In this document: in pieces, positions 4,438-48,410 of the stretch
Numbering within the stretch: position 1 is the stretch's first letter
Layout: every line of letters begins with the position of its first letter
Assembly (NCBI GenBank): GCA_905178155.1
Contig: CAJINV010000005.1
Coordinates: 612,564 to 676,563, forward strand
Source: Amoebophrya sp. A120
Taxonomy: Eukaryota > Protista > Dinoflagellata
Length of the DNA stretch: 64,000 nt
Direction: 5' to 3'
Program-made: the position numbers and the translations under genes
Notes under the pieces: model-generated
The model's input: only the letters and a program-made list of their open reading frames with translations
Database searches by the model: none
What the model was told of the DNA's origin: nothing

Positions 4438-5677
4438 TCTGATCTTTTCGAATGCTGATATACTTGTTAATCAGAAATAAAATCACGAATCACCGTCTCG
4501 TTGCTGTCATTCCGTGTACGCTGTGCTGCGCGGAAAGGAGCGAATCTGCGAGACAAAAATCAAGCTCTTCTTGCAAATTATGGAAACGCATCAACAAAAC
4601 TCCACCCAGCTCACTGCTCCCCACTTTTGGTTCCCGCTGGTGCGCTTGCGCAGAGAAGGCCGCTTGAAGATGACACGTAAAATCACAATCAGCTAAGCAG
4701 TGGCAGTGGGCTCTTTGCATCACAATTTACTTCTTTCACGCAGAAAAAACACTCAGAATTCACCAGCATTTTTACTCTCGGCAGCTACTAACTTCTGTCG
4801 TTCTCAGGCGTTCTTTGTTTCCTCGGTATGGCACTTCACAACGACCTTTTTTCTGAGCAGTGCACACTCGTCACAGCACGTCAGACAAAGATTGATACAA
4901 CCGACAGGATCCAGAACATAAGCTTGTCGCACGACACGACACGCTGCCACAACTTCTATGTCATTCATAGGGGCGCTATCACTAAGCAACGATGACCACG
5001 AGAGGTAATTTGATATCGCTGGTTTGCCTTGGCATTCGATTTTTGTTTTTCGAAACAGGATGCATTTTTCTCTTCATCAAATTCAGTATCATCTTCAGCT
5101 CTTCTGCTGTTGAGCGCATCTTCATCATCAACGACCGAAAATTGAAACCTGAATTGTTTTCGTTGGTAAAAAGAAGTTCGAGTTCATAGTTATCTTTCTT
5201 TCGCCCTAAATCTGGAGGTTTTTTGCACTACTTTTCCAGATGTTGCGAACGGACTACAAAGGAAAAATATCGTGAAGCTCAAATAAATCTGCCATTGTTT
5301 GTAGTTCCCCCGAAACAGTAAACAGCAAGTTCTCCTTCTCGTCGTAAAACGGTAATGTTTATATCCTCAGTTTTCATCGCGTTCATTGTAAGTTACTTAA
5401 GCAAGGACGAGAGATTCGTCGGCGTTGTGCGGTGGCATTTGGTTAAATTGTGTAAAGATCACAAAAATTCATATAGGTGAAAAAGTCAGTGTAACATTTT
5501 TAGTGCTAATTGCAGCCCTGACAGTACTAAAAGTTTATATAGCAATCTGGCTTTGGCATAGAGGCAGTCATCAATTTCCTTTTTTCTTTAAGGGTTTTGT
5601 ATCAGGTTGACATAGCTTCTGTTGATAGATGGTGTTGCTTTTCATTTTCGTACAAGAAGTCGCACGGTGTTGCAGCT

Positions 5678-6806
5678 TACTAAGTGGAAAAATGTCTGCA
5701 GCAAAAAAAATCAAAGTTTTTGGTAGGGCAGTTTGTGCCCTTCTCTTCTCGCCCGGACTGCAGCGCGCTGGTGAGCGCCGTGGCCTTCATGCTTGGGAAC
5801 TTGACCGAGGTGCTGTGCTCCATTCCTGCTGCGTCGTTTGGTCGAAGCTCCAGCGCGAGCTTGAAGGCCCCCTAGTAGTCAGCCCAAGCCTTAGTCCTCA
5901 CACTTCTCGTTCTGGAAGTAGTTCCTTTGGTCATGATGCTCCTGTCCAGCATGCCGCGAACCTCAGCCAGGTACTTGGGCGTGAAGCCCCTCCCGCCAAA
6001 AGTGGCAATTTGTAATGCAGGTCTCGCGTTACAAATGGCCTTTTCTTCTGACCCGTTCTGGGTCAGCTTTCTGGACCGCATCACAAATCTGAGCTCCTGA
6101 ATCGGCAGAATGCCGTGCTGTGAGGGTTCAGATTTGTGATGCAAAACGTGGCTCCGCGAAAAACGTCTGCACCTCGTCCAGTGAGGTCCCCAAGTGAGGT
6201 GCAGACGTTTTTCGCGGGAGGGGGGGAAAGTGGGGCCCATAGCCCGTGTTTGTCTGCGCCGCGAAAAACGTCTGCACCTCCGAGATCGGCCTCCAGATGA
6301 GGTGTCCTCGGACACCTCTTCGGAGTCGTCCCGAGTCGCGGACCTCCGGGGCGACAAATTGCGGCCGCCCTTTTCGCAGGGCCCCGACCTGTATCGAGCT
6401 CAATTTGCCGGCAAAAGCCTGCAACTTGAGCTCATCCCCGAGTCGACCTCCTCCGAGGCCGCGAGGTTTGAACAAAAAGCGAGTCTGTTCCTCAGCAAAT
6501 TCACCCCATTCCCAAACAAGATATGTACGCGGTAAATCGTCAGGAATCAGGAGGGGGTGTGGGAACTTGAAGAACTACAACTGCGAACCCGGGTGGACGA
6601 CGTCCACCGATACCGACGCACCGAGTCCCCCGGTGGCTGAGTTGTCTCCTCTGTTTCGTCCGCCGAGGCCTTGCCGGAATACCTGGCCTACCCATTCCCT
6701 TGATTTTGTTTCATTTTGAAAAAAAATAAACACACAAGCAGGCGCCCGACTATGTAGGATGCAAAAATTTTGATTTTTTTAGCTGCAGACATTTTTCAGC
6801 TTAGTA
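5678..6806. mobile_element. Intergenic non-autonomous DNA transposon (MITE-like, 1,129 bp), ~45-bp TIR, TSD CAGCT
   Basis: CAGCT|TACTAAGTGGAAAAATGTCTGCAGCAAAAAAAATCAAAGTTTTTG...CAAAAATTTTGATTTTTTTAGCTGCAGACATTTTTCAGCTTAGTA|CAGCT; GC-rich interior with several hairpins; no credible ORF. Confidence 0.9.
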
Positions 6807-7589
6807 CAGCTAGCTCTTCTTTGATAAGCAGGTAAAATTTCTTCCTAGCTCAGTACTGGTTAGTGGAAGCGCATTTAGATGAAATTACTAGTGTACACCA
6901 CATTCGTTTTGTTGCTTTGTGAAGCTTGTTGTTCCACTTATGGCGTTTTGGATTTTGACCGGAAGTCATGACAAACAAGCTCCTCGTCCATTGTTTTCAA
7001 AAATGTTTTCTATTCATTCTCTAGAATCAAAATTTTTCTCGCCTGCTTAATTCGCTCACTGTATCGTACACAAACGTCTTCGTTATCTGCTAATGAGTTT
7101 GAGTTCTCTATTAATTTGCAAACAATATATTTGCAGCAATCGTCGCATCGTGCACCAGAGTTTACGGCACAACGAATATTACACTAAGTACATTCATCTG
7201 CGATAAAACCTCCCTCCTTATGGCTTGTAGCCCTGCCGCAGCATCACGTCCACGAAGGAGCACACCTGATTCATATATGAGTACATTCATTTTATCTTTC
7301 GCAATTTCTCATGCGCATTCATATACACCTTCGGGTACGGATGCAGTAGAGCGGCCTTGTTTTAGGTGTGTAAAACCAAAACGAAAACTTCATTTAGAGT
7401 CCACATACCGGTCCCTTCAGATTGTAAAACAGCCGCTCGTTTTGCTTTATGGCAAGCTCAGGTGGGAATGTCTCAAAAATGGAGCAGGTTTGGTGTGCAA
7501 CATGGTTGCCAAAGACCCAGATCACACAGAGAAAAATTTGTTGTATCTCTTACTCTTAGGTCCTGACGCAATTACATGCAAAAAAAACC

Positions 7590-10635: not shown

Positions 10636-10736
10636 CCTTTCTTTCGATATGGAGGGCTGGGTTCTCTCCTCACTTTCACAACCACCAGCCCATCGGAGAT
10701 AGCAAATCAATTTGACAGAAGTTTGTTGTTTCACCA

Positions 10737-10980
10737 AGCTTGCGAAAAGCTCAACAGACCAAAAAGCTCTGCCTACTGGTTTTCATTTTCGATATAATGG
10801 GAAAAGAAATGTAAACAGTCATCAAGTTTAGCCACAGTTTTTCATTTGTGGTGACACAAACCGCACTAACAATTGTCCTCCGACGCTCACGGTGAAATAC
10901 CTCTCTATATTGCTAGTCTGTGTTTTAATTCTCTCAGTTAGAATATCCTCAACACTGACGAAACGACGTTTGGCTCTCGA
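10737..10980. repeat. Upstream-region duplicate, copy 1 (copy 2 at ~12971-13222)
   Basis: AGCTTGCGAAAAGCTCA(A/C)CAGACC(A/G)AAAAGCTCTGCC(T/C)ACTGGT and AATTCTCTCAG...CGACGTTT blocks recur in the same order. Confidence 0.8.
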
Positions 10981-12834: not shown

Positions 12835-12970
12835 CGTTGTTCGCGTGCGTGCTCGTCGGGCATTCCCGTTGGTCTTGGAGACTGCAGGGGGACCGCGGAG
12901 CACGACGGCAGTTTGTTGACACCGCGGAGCGAATTCATTTTCCACAAGTTTCGTTGTTTTTTTCGAACCT

Positions 12971-13222
12971 AGCTTGCGAAAAGCTCACCAGACCGAAAAG
13001 CTCTGCCCACTGGTGGTTTTCACTTTGATACGAATTTTTAAGGGTGAGAGTCATTGATGTTTGCCAGAGTCTATCCTCCTTTGTGATGAAACAAAGCGCG
13101 CCACCAATTCTTTTCCTTTTCCGAAGATACTTTTGGCGAAGTACCTTTTCGCCTTGTTAGTTCGTGCTTCAATTCTCTCAGCCAAAATACCCTTAACCAC
13201 GACGATGCGACGTTTTTCTCTC
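12971..13222. repeat. Upstream-region duplicate, copy 2
   Basis: See 10737-10980. Confidence 0.8.
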
Positions 13223-14384
13223 GGTTCCGCGATACATACTTTTATTCTATTTGCATCCCGCCACGAAACTGGAGACTCCATGACCATATTCTAGACTAAG
13301 GACGAGCAAACCTCAGACAATTATCGCCGTAAATCGCACTCTTAACCGATCAAAACGTGGGACATCTGGATTTTCATGCGAAGAGCCGATCGACACCACC
13401 AACGAGAGAACGGTGGAGGACGTAGCCTGAACAATTTCCATTTTCTGCGTATTCATTGCAAACACGCATGCCATTAAAACTGTTGTGATTTCCGTTCATG
13501 GCTTTGGCTGGTAGCGAGTTTTATATGCGCTGTCAACGATCGCACTGCGACTCGAAGTTTTAATCAAATTCAAGGGTTCATTTGTCTACTAGACGCGGGG
13601 CCTAGGTGGGATAACATTAAAGTTTGATTCGCCCTACCGCTGCGGGCGAACTGCGAGAGAGAAGCGGTAGTAGTTGCAGCTCTTGCTAAATTCATTTTTC
13701 ATTTTCTCTAGTATCTTCTTTGTTCATTATGTTATTACATAACACACCAAAGTGGTAAAGACAAAAATTCGTGAAACTGCAGAGCAGTTGAGCTTCATGA
13801 TACATCAATATTAGACAGGCGCGTTTTATGTAGACAAAGACAAATCATTGCTTAGAGTATGATGTATGAAACAATAGCGTTGTAGTAGGTGAAGTGAATG
13901 AAGACAAACGCCGAAAGAGCGACATGGTGATACTGGCAATACGAACTCATAAATTTTTGATATAGTTTTTAGCGTTTCGTGGGTAGTTTTGTTTTGTTTT
14001 CCTATCTTCCTCTTTCCTCGGTTTTTACATGGTCTGCTTTGTTGCAACTAAATTGCCGCTCTCTACTTTTGGATATCTTCCTCCATCGGCTTCTCACACC
14101 TTCACAGACGCGTCCGACTTGACTTGTACTAGAAGTTGCCTCCCGAAAGTCATCAGAGCCTCTCTGCTGCGACAGTTATCAAAATCGCAAAATTCCACCT
14201 TAATATATACTTTTTACTTTTGCTTTATTCTCGCCGGGGACATCAGATTTATTGTTGAGCTTTTCGTCACTTTTGCGTGATTCGGATTTTCATAAAAAAG
14301 TCAGATTCAAGTACAAGGAGCGGTTAAAAAGTCATTTATCAATTTTCAGGAGCTGCTTTCCCTCCGGTTTTTTCGTAGGGCGCT

Positions 14385-16206: not shown

Positions 16207-19200
16207 TTGCAGCTGCTGCTTGGTCGACTGGTCCGCCCCACTCCCCTTCGCTGCAATCATTTCACTGTTCTGCTGTTTTTTCGGCGGCTGAATGACGAAG
16301 GGCGCGACGACTTTCGGGACCGAAGCGGAAACTGTGCCTGTGTTGGTACCGCCCGCAGCCTTGCTTCCGGATGAACCTCCAGGGTTGGTGTTGACAATTT
16401 TTGCCGTGGAGCTGGAATTTGGCGGCGGGGACAGCAGCGACCTTTTCTTGTTCTGCACCAAGCTCGCCTCGTCGACATGAAGGCTGGACCTCGCGGGGAC
16501 TACCACCGCATTACAACTCTGCTCGGTGTTTGTTCCAGCAGCAGCCGCCTGGTCCTGCTGTTCAAACGGCGAGGACCGACTGCTGCTCGACTGCGACCCG
16601 GGCAAAACGGGCACTTCCATCTGCAAGAGCGAGGTTGCTGGCTGGAAAGAAGAAGAGCCGCTTCCTATTACAATGAAAAATGCCCCCATCCCCAAAGTTG
16701 CAATAATTTGTCATGCGAAGTTTCCAAATGAAAACTTTTTGTCATGCATGAAAGGAGTGTGAATCTCTCTAATGCAGAGTCTAGGCGTATACAGCATCGC
16801 TTGCATGACAAGGGCCGCTCTTGCTGGGATCTTTTGCAATACAAGTTTTTGCTATTCCCGATTGAAGATCTGTGATGCTGGTAGATGTAAGAGGGCGAGT
16901 GTTTCATTTGGAAAGGTTTGCAATACAAATGCTCCAAAGTTCAAGTTCTGCGGTGGGGGCACTTTTCATTGTCATACTTCCGTTGCGCTGGATCAGCGTT
17001 TGGTTCATTCCCAGCAGCGTGTTGGTCGGGGACAAACGACTCGACAAAGAGTTTTGGTTTTGCTGCTGCTGTTGCACCACCTCTTCGACGTGTTCTTGTT
17101 CGTCTGGTATGCTTTCCGAGCCGGGCAAAATGGTCCGTGTCGACGTGATTCCGTTATAATCCCCAAGGAGACTAGCACTCGATGTCATGGTCATGGAGGG
17201 TGGTCGACTGGCTAATATCTCGCCAGCGATATTAGAAGTGGTCCCGTTCGAATGGTTGTTGTTATTTGATGTTCCGTGCAGGTTCATCGCAGAATTGTTA
17301 CTGGTAGAGCTTGATTTTGACAAAACCATCTCGGAGCTGGGCTCGGTGCCGGAAGAAATCGTCTTCTGCATCTTCTGAAGGGGAACGAAGCCGTGCTTCG
17401 AACTGGTTTTCTGCTGCTGCTGCACTCTCAACATAGAGGAAGAGTTGTCTGGTGCTGGGTCGACCGACACTGAAGACGACTCCGAGTGGTGACCTCCGGA
17501 GGAAGAAAGCGACAAAATCCGGCTCATTCCGGAGGCTTGTCTAGCGCCAGTCGCAACTACTCCATGCTGCAGCAATTTAGGATGTCTATTTTTAGTACTG
17601 TGCTTGTTGTTTCCTGGCTTGCTCGTGTTGAAAAAGCTGGTTTGATGTGCAGGAGCACCTCCTCCTATTGGTCTACTACTGCTCGAGGAGGAACTATGGC
17701 GCTCTCAAGTGTTACATTCTCAACTGTTACATGATTTGTCATGCAAAACTACAATCATCATCATCATCATGTAGTGGACACCCGCACCCAGCGCCACAGG
17801 TCAAGGATCCCCTCCCCGGGGGGGTGGGCGAGGAAGCACTTTCGGCGACCTCAACATACAAAAGCCGAGCGCTACCACGGCAAGTCGCCCCAATAAAAGT
17901 GCCAACCAGTCGGGAGCTACCCACCACACCTGATCAGTACAGCCCGGCCAGCTAGCCGAGCGCGACAGCCCAACATACAGAACGATCCAGGACCCGACCC
18001 ATTTTACGCCTTAAGTTTTTGTTCTCACGGAAGAGACGACGTACCCCTTTGGGCTACTTAAGGGGCGAGACTCTCCCTTAAGCCGCAACCCCACCCGGAC
18101 AGGGGAGGCTGGACCATTTGCGCCTTACCTGCGGCACGGACGAAAAAGGCAAGTGCCGCGAACCGGAGATGTCAAACCATTGGCCAGTTGTTTGTCACTG
18201 CTGACTGGCAACCCACCTGGGGCACAGCGACAACTTAACGGCTTAGTTTCTGCGTGGCGGTCAGAGTGCAACTCCTTGACTTATTCTGCAACAGAAGCAA
18301 AGGGTGGGAGGGGGGACGGGGGGCGTAAGCCGGAGTCGCGACGGAGCTTACCTTGAGCTTACCTTGAGCCTACAATCAGAATCTACACAATCAAGCTTCT
18401 TAGCATGACAAATTCTTTGAGGGCCAAACAGGCTCAGACTCTGTGCCAAATCTGTCATGAAAGACGCGCAAGGTCACCCCGTTCACTTTTTCCATTCTTG
18501 CATCACAAATTCATGTACATGTATATGTAACAGTTGAGAATATGACAGTTGAGAACGCCATAGGAACTGCTGCTGTGTTCTACGCCAGTCAAAACACTTG
18601 TTGGTGGGTTGAGCAACCGGGCTATGAAAGCCTCAGGTTGGAAATCCTCAAAGTGGAAATAATTTGTAATGCAAAAAAACGACCCCAGTTGAAGCGGCAT
18701 TTGTAGTCGGCGCATGACAAAATTCCCGGGCCTTTAAAGCATGTCTGTCATGCAGGTTAAGGCAAAGGGGTGCCCTTCTGTCGTGCTCGGCAGCACTCCA
18801 ATTCTTCACCCCTAGCAGGACAATGGTTGGCTTCCATTATGTCCTCTGCAATACAGTCTTTTTTGCCTTGCATATCATGCATCACAAATTGTTTCCATTT
18901 TGAGGATTTCCATTCTGAGGCTGTCATACGAGCACCGACGCTCGTAGTGCCACCTGCTCCACCCACTCCGCCGTATGCCCCGCCGAGCTGCATGCCAACG
19001 CGGCCCTCATAGTACAGGTTGCCCCGGGATTTTGGGGGCGAGGTGAAATACCGCGACTTCAGGTGCTTCGCAGGGACTACCTGGTGCTGTTCCTCTGAGG
19101 AGTTGTTGGGGTTAGTCGCGGAAGTAGAACCACCTATAGCACCAGCATTTTTATCCTTCGACGTCGCGTGAACCGTGCGGGTTCTACGTCGCTTCGCTTG

Positions 19201-23399: not shown

Positions 23400-26300
23400 T
23401 CACTGCAGATCGATCCGAATGCAAGAGTCCGCGGAGAAAACGTAGGGCACCGCCCCCACCTGGCTCGCTACCAGGCCGAACGCTGAGCTGGAGGCGATCA
23501 CCGCGACAGCCTTACTGAGCACCTGGAAGTCCAGCCACCCGTCGGAGACGCCCCGGATTTCGTCGAGCTTCGTGCGAGATGGATCGCCTCGGATGCGCTG
23601 GTCTTGTTCTTGCAAATGATTATTTCCTCCTTCTCCCAAATCTGCTGCACCTTCGGTAGTAGTTGTCCCAGCACTTGTAGTAGTTTTGTTGTTATTGAAC
23701 TGGGACAGGTGCGTTCGCGATTTCAGATTTCCATTGTGGACGATCTTTCCCTGCTGGATCCACGAGCGGATCTGCGGTACTTCCGAGAGCACCGCCGCGT
23801 TGTCCGTTGCCAAGTACCACTTCACCGTCACGCGCGGCCGTACTGGTATGGACGCTGTGCTGTTTTTGGTGGTACTACTACTAGCAGCTGACCCGTGGTC
23901 CTCCAGAAGATTCAACAGCTTCGAATGGCTTGCTAGGCTGTTCTTCTCGTTTTTCATCTCCAACTCTAGCACTCGTTCCACCTCTGCCGCGCAGCCCAGC
24001 ATCCGGACGAGCATATCGGTGCCATGGCGGATATCCAGGTCCTCGTTGACCTGGCCGAACCCCGCCACCAGATCGCCGGCACGGTAGTGAATCCCGATAA
24101 AGTACTCCCGGAACACGTCGAGACTGTTGGAGGTCAGGTCGTTTTGATCTCTTACTTCCTGAGGTGCATCTAGGTCGTCTACTTCTTTCATCGGCTGCTG
24201 TTTCTCTGCGACGTCAACATGCTGTTTCATCTCTTGTTCAATTCCTTCTTGTTCTTCCCCCTCCCACCGCTCCGCCAATTGCAAGTAGTGTTGCTGCGCG
24301 GCTAGCTGCACCGCCTCCTGATTCAGCTCGTCGGTATCGAAAGGCACGTAGGGATTCCGCAGAAACAGCATCCGCTTGAGCATGTGCAGGGAAGGTTGGA
24401 ACAAATACTCAAACATGTAGTGCATCAAATACGGCATCCGCACCCACTCTGTTGTGATCACGCGCTTCTCGTAGAATAAGTAGCGGCACTATCCAGGAAA
24501 ATAAAACACCAATCCCCAATATTTGTTTCTTGGATGACAAAAACACAAATGAAAGGCTTTGCTAGCGCATGGTATTGCATGACATCAAATTATTGGATAG
24601 GTATGCGTGTTTTTTCCTGGATAGGTACACTTGCCCGAAGAAGGACTTCTTGTTCGTGTAAATCAACAGCACTTCCTCGTCGGATTCGAGAAATTCTCGG
24701 AAATATTTCTGTTTGAACTCGTCGTAATCCCAGAGCAGGTAGGCCTTTTTCCGCAACAACCGCAATCTCTCCCGCTTCTCGTCGGTAACCACCCAATCGA
24801 CGTTCTTCTCCCCGGTGAAGGGGTCGCGCGCGGGCACCAGGAAATTCGAGAGCGCGATCGGGTCCTATGACAGTGCACAACTCCCCCTCCCCCTCCCCGC
24901 CCGCGCCCTCATTTGTGTTGCTGTTGCATTAACAGCAACACAAGCGCTGGCAAAGATGCAGCTTTTGCATGACAGATTCCTAGAGGGTTAAAGTGCTGTT
25001 TTGGATTCAGGAATCTGTCATGCAAACAGTGCTAACAGGCAAAGGATGGACGTGGAATTGCAATTTTGCATGACAAATGAGGGGGAGGGGGAGTTGTGCA
25101 CTCTCATAGGTCCGGCATGTCGATGAGAAACTCGCGGCCCAGGACAATGGCGAGCAAAAAGCTGACGAAAATGCCGTTCCACCGGTCCCCGTGGCCGCCA
25201 CAGGCGTAGGCCCCCGCGTGGCAACCGAACACCACGTATTTCTTTCTTTTCGTGAGAGAAGGGTCGTTCTTTCGGTTCTTCTTTCCCTCCTCGTCCCGCA
25301 ACCTCCCCCAAGCCTCTTCCAGTTCCCGTTTGAACAGAAATTTTCCGGCTTCCAAATCCCACGTCAGGTGGTCCTTCGGCTCCTCCACCAAATACTTTTT
25401 GTTCAGGTCGGACCGCAATATCCTGAGTAAAAACGTCCCCGCCCCAGAGTCAAGATGGGGATTTTGCAACACAAACCTCGAGGTTTTGGGAGCCACGCAT
25501 GACATAAACAGACTGTGCTGCTGCGGGAATGGCATTGTGTTTCGGGTGAGTTGATCAACCCAAAGACGCCGCCACCCCGGGCCCAACGGACCTGGCACTC
25601 CAAACAATAAACAACACACACACACACACGCCAACATATTTGTTGGACCTTTCAACCCAGCACCCGAGCACAATATACAGCAACGGGACCAGAACTGGAG
25701 CAGTCCAAATTACTTCACTATTTGGCAGAGCACAGTCCATCAGCGCATTGGAAGCACAGACAGATGTTTATCCTTGCCAGTTGCAGGCTGTAGTGTAATG
25801 CGGCTTAGCAAGGGGAGCCGGATAACAAATCCATCTCCTTATCCTGTTTACAGCATTACAAGTTCCAAAATACAATGGGAAATCAAATGCCTCTTATGGG
25901 GATGCGCATTAAAAATGCTCTCGTGCTTGCAGATCTGCATGACAACTCTGGGGTGGGGATGTTTTTACACGGGATACGCAAACCAGAATTCTTCCCGACC
26001 ACGATCGGTGGCAGAATTTGCGAGTCGTGGAGCGCAGTATTGCTGGCCGACGAGACCCAGGCCGCTTTCGTCTCGCCGTCCGCGATATGGATTGCAAAAA
26101 TGTCTGGGTCTGGAGGAATGCAGGAGTCTGTCATGGAGATTTTGCATGACCCATGAGGTCTGTGATGCATGCCCTAGCATCAGAGATTTTGCGAGGGCTT
26201 TCTGATGCTCATACCGCATGAGAAATGCCCTCTCCGCGTAGCACAAGTTACACCTCTTTTGCTGTTCATGCAATACAGTTTTTATGTAGATTGCAAAAGT

Positions 26301-43817: not shown

Positions 43818-46800
43818 TCACTTTTCCCCAACTGCGGATGACGAGCCACCGCTACTCGTCGTTGTTCCCGACGAGTGATTCCTATCCAGGTGCTGGCAGT
43901 TGCTGTGCCCGCGCCTCCTAGTCCTCGTTCTCCTTGGTTTATTCCGTCCGGAATTCATTGCCACTTCCCACCCGATGTTCAGGGCTGCTGCGGCCACGTA
44001 AAAACACGACAACGAGCGCAGCGTGCTCTCGGTGGCAAGCTGCACGGCGTGGGCGTTCTTCTTGGCCGCGGCTTTTGTGGCTGCTTTCGACATTGGAGGG
44101 GCTGCGGTAGTTGTTGTGGGACCATCTTCACTGGAAATTTTCGTTGCACCGGAGGCAGAAGCTTTGCTTCCTCCAGAGCCTGTCCCTGTGTTGCCACCGT
44201 AAGTAGTAGGAGCACTCCCAGAAGATAGATCCTCGTCCTCTGCAGGTACTTCTTGCTGCGCCATCTGAAACAGTGAGATCACCTGATTTGCAATCAAGGG
44301 CCCGACCACGTAGTTCATAGCCTCGTCAATGATGTTAAATGTTGCGAGGGAATGCAGTTTTTGTTGCGTGGACGAGGATGCGAGCACCTGCACTCCGCCC
44401 ATGGTCGCCTGCATCAAAAGAAGCAGAACCAACGCGGTCGTGGTAGGGGGAGAGTTGAACGCCTTTTCCAATAGGGCGCGGGGGTTGTAATGATGCTTTT
44501 CTCTGTGCTGATCGTCTCCTTCGTGGTCGTTTTTGAGCGAATTCAGGAGTTCTGTGACTTGAAATACATCCGCATCATCCAGAAACGACGTCAAAAATTC
44601 ATCATCTTCTTGCGCGCCGCCGCTAGTATTGCTGCCGAGGGTTGTGTCGCTTTCGTTGGTTGTCCCCAACTTCTTTCTGTCCGTTGAAAAGGCCTGTCCT
44701 CTATCGTCGTTCTCGTTCATCGCGCTTTTCATTGAAAGACCCTCTCTGGAGCTTCTACTGTCGTGAGGAACAGCACCAAAAGACCGCCCCTGGAGAATCG
44801 TACTAGTGATGCCCAGTGGCGGAAGGCGTTGCAAACGAGGTGATTTGTGTTCTACGGATTTTGCTCCCGCCGACGACGTTTCGCTTTCCCCACTAGAGTC
44901 GCCACGACCAGCCACGGCGCCGCTGTTCCGCTTCCTATCATTTCGTGACGCTGCTAGAAACCTCATTGCAGCAGGCGAGATGCGGGGCTGCAGGTCACGC
45001 TGGTCCTGTTCCGAGGAAAACAACCCTTGGAGTCTCTGATTCTGTCTCGGGTCGTCGGTTTTTTTCACCAAAATTTGCGGCAACACAGTGTAAAAAGTTT
45101 GCACGGCACAGAACATGGCCAGCTGCGGACCCGCACGCATCACAACACCATCCCGCTTCATGCACTTCCTGACCCGGCGAGCAGTGCTTTTCAGAAGTGA
45201 CGCGGCCTTTCTTGATGTTGTTGCGCTTCTGGTCGTGGCACTGTCTGCGGTAGGTGCCGCTGAAGACGACATCGCAGCGTCCAGTTCTTCTTGGCCCTCG
45301 CTATCTGGTGTCCTACCACGCTGCATTGCGGCAGGACAGCCATCGGATGTCGCAGCGTCTTGACCTTCCTCAGTGTGTGCCGGTTTCGTCGGACCGTCGC
45401 CTTTATTCCGCTCCAGCAGCCGAAACAGCCAGGGCTGCACCACACTTGCCGCAAGCACCGCACCAAACAACGGCCCCATCGTGACCAAAAACGCGGTGAG
45501 ATCCTTCGGGAGCCCCGCGCCCTTGTGACACAGGTGCGAGGCGGTGTTGGGGGCCAGGTTGCTTTGTGCGGAAGTGCCGAGGGAACACATCATCCACTGC
45601 GTCAAAAGGAGGATCTGCTGCTTGCGGTCTTTCGATTTACTCGCAGACGAATGGGGTTCCTCTTCCTCGTTTATTTGCCCTCGCCGCAAGTGCTCATGAA
45701 CTTCGTCACCAACGTCGGCCACAAGAGTGGCCGCGAGGTCATGATCAACTTCTGTGTCCTCTGCCGCATTGCTCTTGCCAGCACTGGCTGTGGAACAAGC
45801 ATCCGTAGTCCTAAATTTGGTGGACATTGTGCGCCGCTGATTTGTCGTTTCTTGCCCTCGCCCGCGCCACTCGGCCGACGACTCCGACCCGAAGTCAGCG
45901 CCGCACAGTTCTTCCTCGGGCCCGCCGAATAAGAATGTCTGGCTGCCAAAGCAAGTTCCAGGAGAACTCCCCGCGGCCGGGGAGGAGCAGGCGGCGGTCG
46001 TTGCGGGTGTGTAGGTGTTCGCCTTAATGTCCTTTTCATAGCTTGATACAGATGCCGGTGTGTTTGTACTGTTTTCGCTCTGCCTGCCGGATCGAAATGC
46101 ACCGTGGCACAAACTCCCTCCGCCAAGGGCCAAGGCAGTGGTGACGATAAACACGTTTGCCAGGACGACATTTTTGATCCAGCTGTCCGGACTTCCACAG
46201 GCAGCCACGTACTGGCCCAGGCCCGGGATCGCGTTTGTGAACAGTGGCAACTTCGCCAGCGCCGCCGCTTGCGCCTGCTCCTCAGACATTGCAGCTTCCT
46301 GGGATGCTGATGAAGCCGGATCATTCACGTCGTTCCCTACTAGGTCGTCATGATCATCAGCATCGACCATCATATTAACCACGTCTAGATCCTCAGTCTG
46401 ATCTGCTTCACCAGCCACTGCTCGTCCTGCCGATTCTTCTCTATCACTTTCTAGCAAACAGCTGGTCGTGTCACTGCTGACCCTCGAGGTCGAGGCCACA
46501 CTACCGGGCAAGGAGGGCGGGATCGAAAACAATTCCTTGGTGATCGTTCCAATTAACGGTGCCATAAAACCTTGGACCGCACCGCAAAGCCAGTTATTCA
46601 GCCAGTAGGACACAAGCACCTTGTCGAGGTTTCCCTCCTCCCATCCCGCCTCGAGCCCGAGGAAAATTATGACTGCGTCAACTTACCCAAACTCAACTTA
46701 CCCAAAAACTTTATTAGCGATTTTTCATAGCTAGAAGGCATGCTGATTTGTAATGCCTAAAAGTAGTAGCTATGGTTAGCTAGATAGAACTTCATATAGC

Positions 46801-48410
46801 TAATTAAGACCGTTTTCACGCGTGTGTAGAACCCGCAACCTCCGCTACCAACGATCACGGATTCCCTTCCGCTGCCAACGATCGCGGAGGCTGAGCTGCG
46901 TTGCCACCGCGTTGCGACACCATTCACAAGCTTCATACCTTGGCTGGATTTATACACGAAGTGATAGCATGCGACAGGTATTGAGATATTCTATCATTTA
47001 TGCCATTGAATTGAAAAAAATCCGAGGCATCTTTTTTGTCTAATCACGTTGGTAGGGTGATTTTTTGCCAATCCAAAACCTAGCATCGGGGAGGGGGATC
47101 ACTCATCCCCCTGGTCCATGCCTAAAAGTATACTGCTTCCCCGATGCTATGCCCCATGCAAAAGCAATATAATCTGATTTGATAGCATCAACTCGAAGGA
47201 GTTTTATCATGAGACACAGCATCGTTGGGGAGGGGATCCGTGATCGTTGGTAGCGGAGGTTGCGCCTTCTACACACGCCGGAAAACGTCCTTTTCGAAAT
47301 AGCTATTTACCTCAACTAGTAAGTGTAGACTGAGCGGCGCCGGATAGTAGGTTCGGACTCTAAGTAGCTAATTAAAGTGGTTAGTTAAATTTTTGGGTAA
47401 GTTGAGTTTGGGTAAGTTGACGCAGGCATAAAAATGAGCGCCACACTGATAACCGCGGTCGTGATGGACACTTTGCGCAAAAGCTGGATTTGTCTTTGGA
47501 GGTCCTGACGATGGGCTTCGGCTTCCGTGCTCGCGTGATCGTTTCCATCTTCATCGTTTCTGTCGCTTTCGCGAAGGTTCTGTCTTGCCTCGACCAATTC
47601 CCCGTACAAGTGACTGCCAATCACGGACACAAGCCCGCCCATGGAAGTTTTCCATCCGACGAGAAAGTCGTTCTGTGTCAACGGCGTCGGCGGCCCCATG
47701 CCTTCGCTCTTCGCGTCCGCGGCGGCGCCAGCCGTGAGAACTTTGGCAATTTTGGGTAACAGCAGCTGGTTTACCGTTCCGTCGGGAAGGCAGATGAGGC
47801 CCTGCATCATGCCCAAGAGAATCAGAGTTTGCGTCTTCTTGCTAATTTTCGGGAAGTGGACCCGCGAAAGTTTTTTCCGCAACATCGAGGTTGCGCATTG
47901 TCTAACAGCTCTGGTTCCGTCTCCGAGGCTTTCCATGCAGGCGCCGATTTTGTCGAGTAGCTGGTATCCATCTTCTTCCACCACCTGTGAAGTCGTGTGC
48001 TCGTCTGCAGGACGCGGAACAGCAGCAGTATCGGGATGACGATCATGACCCACTCTGGCACTACAACTCGCAGTTGTGCTACTGCTAGTACTCCCTTCAA
48101 GCAACGGACGGCGCAGCGAGGAAGCGAATCCAGACGCTGCTGTACTAGAACACGTCTTTTCGTTATTGCCAGACCGCGAGAATGATGAAGTTGCTACTCG
48201 GAGAGTCGCAAATTGGCTCGCCAATCTGTCTGCGGGGTCTATTTTTTCCGTGTCGTCCGCCACCGAATGGACGAGTGGAGCCTTGTGCAGTAAGCTTCTA
48301 CGCTTGAGCTTCCTCCCGAAACTCGATCGAGTAAAAACCGACACCCAGCAGCTGAAAAGCGCAACGGCAACGCGCCGACGAGAAGACGAAGAGGCTCGCA
48401 TGTTGTTCAT
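43818..48410 (-). CDS. Multi-pass membrane protein (~1,274 aa), possibly a divergent MFS-like transporter with long low-complexity loops
   Basis: ORFs 47385..48410 and 43818..46619 fuse (SVALIF|LGLEAGW...LVSYW) after removing 768 bp; about 10-12 hydrophobic segments. The MFS assignment is an inference. Confidence 0.6.
46668..47430. mobile_element. Introner family I (763 bp), TSD AAAAT
   Basis: TATGACTGCGTCAACTTACCCAAACTCAACTTACCCAAAAA...TTTTTGGGTAAGTTGAGTTTGGGTAAGTTGACGCAGGCATA; a second ~57-bp inverted pair at ~46812-46868 and ~47230-47286. Confidence 0.92.

What the first reader, a model, noticed from the sequence alone, without database searches (positions are those of the whole stretch)
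5678..6806. Intergenic 1.1-kb MITE with introner-type ends and a dense hairpin core
Seen: TAC...GTA termini, 5-bp TSD CAGCT and AAAAATGTCTG at +11 as in family F. Inside are inverted pairs at 6008-6018/6026-6036 and 6078-6092/6128-6142 (both built from the shared motif), a 22-mer CCGCGAAAAACGTCTGCACCTC in +/-/+ orientation (6154, 6196, 6259) that resembles the TIR box, and small hairpins near 6048 and 6299. Inference: it ties the introners to a DNA-transposon family and may be a deletion derivative of the autonomous element.
Basis: partly seen in the sequence, partly recalled or inferred. Interest (0 to 1): 0.7.

Follow-up and report, generated by a model that had tools for sequence, protein, structure and literature searches.

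The report
Long transposon spliced out of transcript
This 1.1-kb mobile DNA element is not intergenic: assemblies of likely RNA skip it almost completely, at unusual cut sites in what is likely a gene's 3' untranslated region, and those sites likely expose the short sequence code with which a likely parasitic dinoflagellate splices its transposon-made introns.

Summary
The anatomy is confirmed: a 1,129-bp TAC...GTA element with 45-nt terminal inverted repeats, a 5-bp target duplication, a hairpin core and the motif shared by all neighbouring introners. It is a low-copy, heterogeneous family (roughly 10-20 copies). 'Intergenic' is wrong. In both RNA-type runs, about 97-99% of depth skips the element (joints 5673|6805 and 5690|6783); the DNA run has neither joint. 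It is a long introner, likely in the 3' UTR of the upstream minus-strand gene. The tie between TA-ended, 5-bp-TSD Amoebophrya introners and DNA transposons is already published. No transposase remnant or autonomous parent was found. The useful part is the splice geometry. Neither joint has microhomology, so both are unambiguous. On the gene's strand both start at CTAA and bypass a canonical GT three bases away. In 246 oriented coding introners, terminal TA changes 2 times at the 5' end versus 11 at the 3' end, while position 3 shows the reverse (9 versus 2; p=0.003). This suggests a 5' code N-T-A-(A/T) supplied by the transposon end. The 3' rule is unsettled.

The parts
5673..5677 (.). left target-site duplication CAGCT
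   Evidence: sequence
5678..5722 (+). left TIR (TAC, 7 nt, AAAAATGTCTG box at +11)
   Evidence: I1; 17 of 21 to family-F ends
5713..6000 (-). left arm, weakly coding-like frame with one TAG; possible decayed ORF fragment, no homologue found
   Evidence: score 0.1; 4 of 103 non-coding windows higher; 15 copy differences split 5/5/5 over codon positions
6008..6036 (.). inverted pair built from the shared introner motif
   Evidence: I15
6078..6142 (.). 15-bp perfect inverted pair built from the shared introner motif
   Evidence: I8
6154..6280 (.). three copies (+/-/+) of a 22-mer that repeats the inner TIR box without a TA terminus; inferred extra transposase-binding sites
   Evidence: I2, I4, D1, D3
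6296..6433 (.). further hairpins (6296-6321, 6396-6433)
   Evidence: I20, I9
6762..6806 (-). right TIR; on the minus strand it holds both used 5' cut sites (CTAAG at 6804, CTAAA at 6782)
6807..6811 (.). right target-site duplication; its G with the element's TA forms the canonical GTACT at 6807, for which no joint was seen
5674..6804 (-). main excised intron, 1,131 nt (element + 2; leaves 3 nt more than the empty site), ends CT..CT on the minus strand
   Evidence: joint 5673|6805: depth 550 in X3, 177.2 in X4, none in X1; no microhomology
5691..6782 (-). minor excised intron, 1,092 nt, ends CT..TT on the minus strand
   Evidence: joint 5690|6783: depth 62.3 in X3, 12.1 in X4, none in X1
6805..7265 (-). 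last coding exon (stop at about 7244-7246) and proximal 3' UTR of the host gene
   Evidence: record 13; translation; strand inferred from GT-AG introns and ORF
5008..5673 (-). distal transcribed segment, inferred 3' UTR (longest ATG ORF in the spliced UTR 40 aa)
   Evidence: record 10; records 9 and 16

Best explanation
It is a 1.1-kb multi-copy transposon with terminal inverted repeats that likely-RNA assemblies show cut out of a transcript, likely from a gene's 3' UTR and likely by a relaxed spliceosome that reads N-T-A-(A/T) instead of GT. Steps: (1) Shown: TA-ended TIRs, a 5-bp target duplication, sister copies at other flanks, and the end box and internal motif of the local introners. (2) Inferred: a DDE transposase of the integrase-like IS3EU/GingerRoot type, acting in trans, inserted it. 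(3) Shown: about 97-99% of RNA-type contig depth skips it at two unambiguous joints. (4) Predicted: the TIRs pair into a long stem that brings the two ends together. (5) Inferred: the 5' cut is chosen by N-T-A-W. Ordinary TAT introners supply N|TAT from the last TSD base plus their own end. This TAC copy offers only G|TAC there, so the next CTAAG wins and 3 extra nt stay in the mRNA, which a UTR tolerates. (6) Weakly inferred: an adenosine a few nt before the 3' cut serves as branch point and no AG is needed.
For: Joints in 2 of 2 RNA-type runs laid (X3, X4) and 0 of 1 DNA run. Interior depth is 5.8-7.9 against flanks of 869 and 645 (X3), and 2.6-6.4 against 278 and 90 (X4). X4 behaves as RNA: it skips GT-AG introns and has zero depth at 4535-4988 where DNA is even. 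Unspliced contigs across both borders are letter-identical to the window (records 12, 13, 17). Microhomology is 0 at both joints and 5 at the TSD junction, which was not seen. The minus strand of 6760-6816 holds 4 NTA sites; the two used are the two NTAA, and GTACT and CTAGC show no joint. In 246 oriented coding introners (of 424 found), end positions 1-2 change 2 times at the 5' end and 11 times at the 3' end; position 3 changes 9 and 2 times; Fisher p=0.003; neighbouring strand calls agree 119 of 123. A stricter finder gave 0 vs 9 and 9 vs 1 in 192 of 335. Six of nine 5' TAC/TAA variants follow a G against 57 of 183 overall. Published data fit: all 9 top A120 splice types start NT; fam1 has NT starts in 892 of 1,322; A25 ends are TTA plus two purines; U1 snRNA was not found.
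Against: Contigs are unstranded and the runs are only guessed to be RNA. On the plus strand both joints would instead end in a canonical TTAG. X3 and X4 are two samples of one study. The 5' rule rests on one element with two joints plus a small-count asymmetry; the two finders use the same loci and are not independent. TSDs show no enrichment of G at position 5 (57 vs mirror 55) or AG at 3-4 (19 vs 11). The 3' rule is unsettled: fam1 has AN ends in 864 of 1,322, which points to a -1/+1 cut, while two window introners sum to element + 5 each (record 13); the stop test could not separate them (1 observed, 3.4 expected). No transposase was found and the TSD is 5 bp, not the 6 bp of IS3EU/GingerRoot.
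Confidence: 0.62

Rival explanations
1. The element is removed from RNA by a structure-guided, non-spliceosomal cut-and-ligate process, as proposed for euglenid nonconventional introns; the NTA starts only reflect the TIR sequence near the stem base.
For: A long terminal stem is predicted, extended by the palindromic AGCT of the TSD, and the main 3' cut lies at its base. Neither end is canonical on the minus strand. PMC7789003 proposes hairpin-aided joining.
Against: The cuts are not at a constant stem position: the 5' cuts lie 2 and 24 nt inside the element, both on NTAA. End constraint differs between the 5' and 3' ends. Nearly all spliceosomal proteins are present in A120.
Confidence: 0.15
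2. The transcript across the element is on the plus strand and uses canonical TTAG acceptors with degenerate donors.
For: Both joints end in TTAG after a pyrimidine run on the plus strand. Loss of U1 could relax donors.
Against: The contig that reaches 6805 carries GT-AG introns and an ORF of a minus-strand gene. All 14 oriented window introners are minus. Published A120 starts are NT.
Confidence: 0.08
3. The joints are reverse-transcription skips across a stable hairpin (falsitrons) and the element stays in the mRNA.
For: Very stable fold. 22 of 57 falsitrons in PMC8240250 had no direct repeat.
Against: The 5-nt direct-repeat junction that slippage would favour was not seen, and both joints have zero microhomology. 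About 97-99% skip here; that paper reports up to 70%. Coding introners of this kind must be removed in vivo to keep frames open.
Confidence: 0.08
4. The joints are DNA excision footprints or empty alleles in the cultures behind X3 and X4.
For: The main joint keeps the terminal TA and loses 4 TSD bases, which could pass for a repair footprint. No DNA run of those two samples was available.
Against: Absent from DNA run X1; two different joints occur in both samples beside letter-identical unspliced borders at low depth.
Confidence: 0.05
5. One reading: an intergenic MITE that is not spliced.
For: No coding frame crosses the site.
Against: Both flanks are covered by deep RNA-type contigs joined across the element.
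Confidence: 0.02

Closest known systems
Amoebophrya sp. A120 introner elements (PMC7789003; PMC12130899 supplement file 8)
   Same: End pattern TAT + 7 nt + A-run at +11, 5-bp direct repeat, non-canonical splice sites, terminal hairpin. Families of 1.1-1.2 kb are listed (fam103, 27 copies; fam135; fam74).
   Different: TAC at both ends (0 of 333 elements; 12 of 666 ends are single TAC), 1,129 bp against 150-350 bp for most, likely UTR position, shifted cut register, internal copies of the TIR box.
A120 family 38 (Ginger-like, '5-bp TSD, TA/TA termini', PMC12130899)
   Same: TA...TA ends, 5-bp TSD, TIR about 50 bp, length near 1 kb, intron-forming.
   Different: Family 38 is reported to carry ORFs with Copia/Gypsy homology; none was detected here.
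IS3EU/GingerRoot DNA transposons (PMC10045372, PMC6839031)
   Same: TA..TA termini and TIRs.
   Different: Their TSD is usually 6 bp (here 5); no DDE transposase found.
Fritillaria borealis non-canonical, MITE-derived introns (via PMC11282704 section 6 and PMC13326754 passages)
   Same: Transposon-derived non-GT/AG introns removed by a changed U2-type spliceosome; 5' site composition linked to U6 ACAGAGA.
   Different: U1 is kept there and main types are AG-AC/AG-AT; here the inferred 5' code is N-T-A-W in a lineage where U1 was not found.
Euglenid nonconventional introns (PMC11282704 section 6)
   Same: TIR stem joins the ends, TSD-like repeats, non-canonical borders.
   Different: Released as circles by an unknown route; here the cut sites look sequence-selected (inferred).

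Membership tests
Non-autonomous TIR DNA transposon (MITE-like) | terminal inverted repeats | tested here: met
   45 nt, 91%
Non-autonomous TIR DNA transposon (MITE-like) | target-site duplication | tested here: met
   CAGCT; 18 such elements vs 0-1 in 10 controls
Non-autonomous TIR DNA transposon (MITE-like) | dispersed copies at other flanks | tested here: met
   105 X1 records at 85-100% identity; foreign flanks at 5678 (2 contigs) and 6806 (4 contigs)
Non-autonomous TIR DNA transposon (MITE-like) | no intact transposase | tested here: met
   longest open frame 175 aa; no family hit
Non-autonomous TIR DNA transposon (MITE-like) | short, high-copy, uniform family (strict MITE; definition recalled) | tested here: not met
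   1.1 kb, roughly 10-20 copies by depth, copies differ by deletions and 5-15% substitutions
Non-autonomous TIR DNA transposon (MITE-like) | empty-site allele in another strain | not testable with these tools
   no genome held; X9 and X10 laid 0 reads; the orthologous site was not among L001-L143
Amoebophrya A120-type introner | IR begins TAT, then 7 nt, then at least three A | tested here: inconclusive
   spacing and A-run met, third base C at both ends
Amoebophrya A120-type introner | direct repeat of 3-5 nt at the borders | tested here: met
   5 bp
Amoebophrya A120-type introner | removed from the transcript at non-canonical sites | tested here: met
   in runs guessed to be RNA
Amoebophrya A120-type introner | repeated in the genome | tested here: met
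Amoebophrya A120-type introner | identity with a published family (fam103, fam135, fam74) | not testable with these tools
   only lengths and labels in supplement file 8
IS3EU/GingerRoot superfamily | TA..TA termini | tested here: met
IS3EU/GingerRoot superfamily | 6-bp TSD | tested here: not met
   5 bp here and in all 18 catalogued window elements (finder required 5; one search scanned 2-10 and gave 5)
IS3EU/GingerRoot superfamily | integrase-like DDE transposase in the element or its parent | tested here: inconclusive
   no homologue; parent could not be sought without the genome
Spliceosomal (U2-type) intron | GT...AG ends | tested here: not met
   CT..CT and CT..TT on the minus strand
Spliceosomal (U2-type) intron | lariat with branch adenosine | not testable with these tools
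   only contigs; indirect constraint on the third-last base

The most novel reading that the evidence does not exclude
This lineage's U1-less spliceosome has dropped the GT rule and reads a 5' site N-T-A-(A/T) that the transposon's own TA-T end provides in either orientation, with the TIR stem standing in for exon definition. That would explain why tens of thousands of TA-ended transposons became introns, and this TAC-ended UTR copy is a natural mutant that shows the code by preferring CTAAG over an adjacent GT.
Probability: 0.4. Interest if true: 0.75.

Novelty: new variant of a known kind. Interest (0 to 1): 0.5.

Why it matters
How Amoebophrya removes its majority of non-canonical introns is stated as open in PMC7789003. 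Ordinary introners can hide their true cut sites inside the 5-bp duplication. This copy has joints without microhomology, so it shows the sites directly and gives a rule (5' N-T-A-W) that existing RNA-seq can test genome-wide. It also shows that introner-type excision covers a 1.1-kb, heavily folded element outside coding sequence; the published intron analysis used a 40-1000 bp window. As a transposon it is ordinary.

Tried and rejected
Whole-genome search: no genome held, so no autonomous copy could be sought. Raw RNA runs X9 and X10 laid 0 reads: no test. Element TIR in metagenome contigs: 0 matches. 22-mer in viral contigs: 0. No relative of the element in loci L001-L143 (about 0.63 Mb distinct; best blastn E 0.065). 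Transposase remnant: Pfam nothing under E 0.25 for 8 frames; NCBIfam 0 of 4; homologue searches 0 hits in 3 of 3; 0 hits in 1.84 billion representatives; PDB best E 0.41. The Atlas gave DDE_Tnp_1 clusters at 0.93 for 5875-6012, but recognition 2242 and 153 shared features are under the tool's marks, so it is a lead only. The full 96-aa read-through could not be scored in the Atlas. Selection on the arms: left arm 5/5/5; right arm best frame 9 synonymous of 15, not significant over 12 frames tried. Arms are not diverged copies of each other. Rfam: 4 hairpin matches, all below gathering score. Three long 'elements' (6,197, 4,208, 1,031 bp) were judged chance pairings of separate ends. TSD composition and the stop test did not fix the general cut register. 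Earlier scan findings: none returned in 3 of 3 look-ups.

Full report
Observation. The element spans 5678-6806 (1,129 bp), ends TAC...GTA and is flanked by CAGCT. The TIR is 45 nt at 91%. A finder for TA-ended TIR elements with a 5-bp duplication gave 18 in the window and 0-1 in each of 10 Markov controls.

Kinship with the introners. The left end matches family-F ends at 17 of 21 positions, reached by 2 of 3,986 background TA-starting 21-mers; the right end matches at 15 (15 of 3,986). The motif YTGT[ACG]ATGC, defined on the other elements, occurs 75 times in 7,676 bp of 25 window elements (25 of 25 carry it) and 3 times in 53,707 bp of background. The element has 3 exact copies and one with a mismatch (Poisson 4e-5). 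The window's elements fit the pattern published for Amoebophrya A120: TAT, seven looser bases, then at least three A, with 5-bp direct repeats (PMC7789003). The organism type is my inference from that match.

It is a small, mixed family. No genome was held, so I used public runs. In DNA run X1 the flanks have depth 41-46 and assembly breaks at both TIRs; 105 records at 85-100% identity lie on the stretch, summed depth at variant sites in the arms is about 250-850, and foreign flanks follow 5678 (2 contigs) and 6806 (4 contigs). That is roughly 10-20 copies; the tool warns that depth is not a copy number. Sister copies show skips 6178-6481 and 6483-6778 and an opposite-strand joint 5829/6460.

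It is not intergenic. In X4 one contig covers 5008-5673 and another runs from 6805 into the upstream gene, skipping its GT-AG introns; 4535-4988 has no depth. So this run behaves as RNA. From those contig ends I predicted a joint 5673|6805 (note). One search found it in X3 (depth 550) and X4 (177.2), plus 5690|6783 (62.3 and 12.1); X1 has neither. Unspliced borders remain at depth 5.8-7.9 (X3) and 6.4 (X4), identical to the window, so 98.7% and 96.7% skip. The host ORF stops at about 7245 and the spliced remainder (about 1.1 kb) has no ATG ORF above 40 aa. The site is therefore likely a 3' UTR of a minus-strand gene. Strand is inferred, since contigs are unstranded. X3 and X4 are two samples of one study; X9 and X10 laid no reads.

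The cut sites. Both joints have zero microhomology. On the minus strand the main intron is CTAAG...GTAAGCT (element + 2) and the minor one CTAAA...CAGACATT. The 57 nt around the 5' end hold four N-T-A sites: CTAGC, GTACT, CTAAG and CTAAA. The two with A at +4 are used; the canonical GT three bases upstream shows no joint (minor forms can be dropped from contigs). Two ordinary introners in the same gene are removed as element + 5 each in sum (421 genomic nt, 59 kept). The register used by this element would create a stop in 37 of 246 coding introners, so it cannot be the general one and suits a UTR.

A test on other introners. The family-F end pattern retrieved 143 loci of assembly JACKZZ01 with the same families. 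Of 333 elements, none has TAC at both ends; 12 of 666 ends are single TAC. I oriented elements by the coding strand of their flanks. Of 424 found (loci plus window), 246 were oriented; 100 non-coding-like, 52 with short flanks and 26 ambiguous were dropped; neighbours agreed in 119 of 123 pairs. End positions 1-2 were changed 2 times at the 5' end and 11 at the 3' end; position 3 was changed 9 and 2 times (Fisher p=0.003; one of the two 3' cases looks like an off-by-one boundary). Internal T positions of family-F ends change at least as often at the 3' end (14 in 89 ends vs 8 in 90, five positions), so simple strand bias does not explain the position-3 result. Six of nine 5' TAC/TAA variants follow a G.

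Mechanism. Shown: TIR element, copies, excision, cut sites. Predicted: a terminal stem. Inferred: the 5' site is read as N-T-A-W, that is positions +2 to +4 of the usual GTRAG consensus (recalled) without the G. Published numbers agree: all 9 top A120 splice types begin NT, fam1 has 892 NT starts of 1,322, A25 ends are TTA plus two purines, and U1 snRNA was not found. U6 ACAGAGA is known to contact +4 and to accept A or U there (PMC13326754). The 3' rule is open. The conserved third-last A would be at -7 under element + 5 removal, but fam1 has 864 AN ends of 1,322, which suggests a -1/+1 cut in many cases; my stop test gave 1 observed against 3.4 expected, and TSD composition showed no signal.

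Transposase. The left arm has one coding-like minus frame (score 0.1, like 3 of 4 held-out genes; 4 of 103 non-coding windows score higher) and two 3-nt indels among copies, but copy differences are spread evenly over codon positions. All homology searches were empty and the Atlas DDE lead is weak. TA..TA ends point to IS3EU/GingerRoot, whose TSD is usually 6 bp; PMC12130899 already labels A120 fam38 'Ginger, 5-bp TSD, TA/TA termini'. The parent is unknown.

Literature seen. PMC7789003: passages, sections 10 and 11, supplement part 2 and table passages; its figures, including the splice logos of Fig. 3, were not visible and may already show the NT bias. PMC12130899: passages and 56 of 58 A120 rows of supplement file 8; files 13-14 were not searched. 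PMC11282704: passages and section 6. PMC10045372, PMC6839031, PMC8240250, PMC13326754, PMC11453091 and bioRxiv 2022.06.08.495308: passages only. Henriet 2019 and Roy 2023 were not read. Searches returned no paper stating an N-T-A 5' code or a branch rule for Amoebophrya; the library lacks most subscription papers.

Verdict. A real element and a variant of a known kind: a long, TAC-ended introner, likely in a UTR. The transposon link is known. The value lies in unambiguous cut sites that make an open splicing question testable. Interest 0.5.

Noticed in passing
window 17695-18562: 868-bp TAT element (TSD GGAAC) whose ends match a short family; its positions 60-247 match L019:10372-10558 at 96.8%, so the interior may be a separate repeat.
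   Followed up: partly
window 46668-47430: 763-bp foldback-like TAT element (TSD AAAAT) with nested inverted repeats to about 200 bp from each end, inside a long minus-strand gene; no match over 60 bp in L001-L143.
   Followed up: partly
window 25419-25976: 558-bp introner: a 280-bp family member with an unrelated insert of about 280 bp at 25505-25780.
   Followed up: no
window 5829 and 6460: Two DNA contigs (summed depth 78) join these places on opposite strands, as if one sister copy had the core inverted; X4 also has a loose end at 6460. The left-arm minus frame and a right-arm plus frame would join in frame there.
   Followed up: no
window 5644-5690: In X3 this contig has depth 228.8 but only 62.3 + 5.8 continues beyond 5690; further minor joints may have been dropped.
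   Followed up: no
window 5060-5390: The distal transcribed segment holds short protein-like acidic frames on the minus strand; possibly a decayed gene now in the UTR.
   Followed up: no
L001-L143 and window: Insertion phase of 246 coding introners is uneven (115/74/57); under a -1 cut the largest class is phase 0.
   Followed up: no
L063:11024-11995 and L039:3862-4492: Family-F-ended elements of 972 and 631 bp with extra, non-coding-looking interior.
   Followed up: partly
window-wide introners: The motif YTGT[ACG]ATGC is in 326 of 333 elements of otherwise unrelated families, in both orientations: a candidate transposase or splicing-factor site.
   Followed up: partly
window 10701-10979 and 12928-13223: Two 69%-identical copies of a 280-bp sequence without TIRs, each just upstream of a minus-strand ORF.
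   Followed up: no
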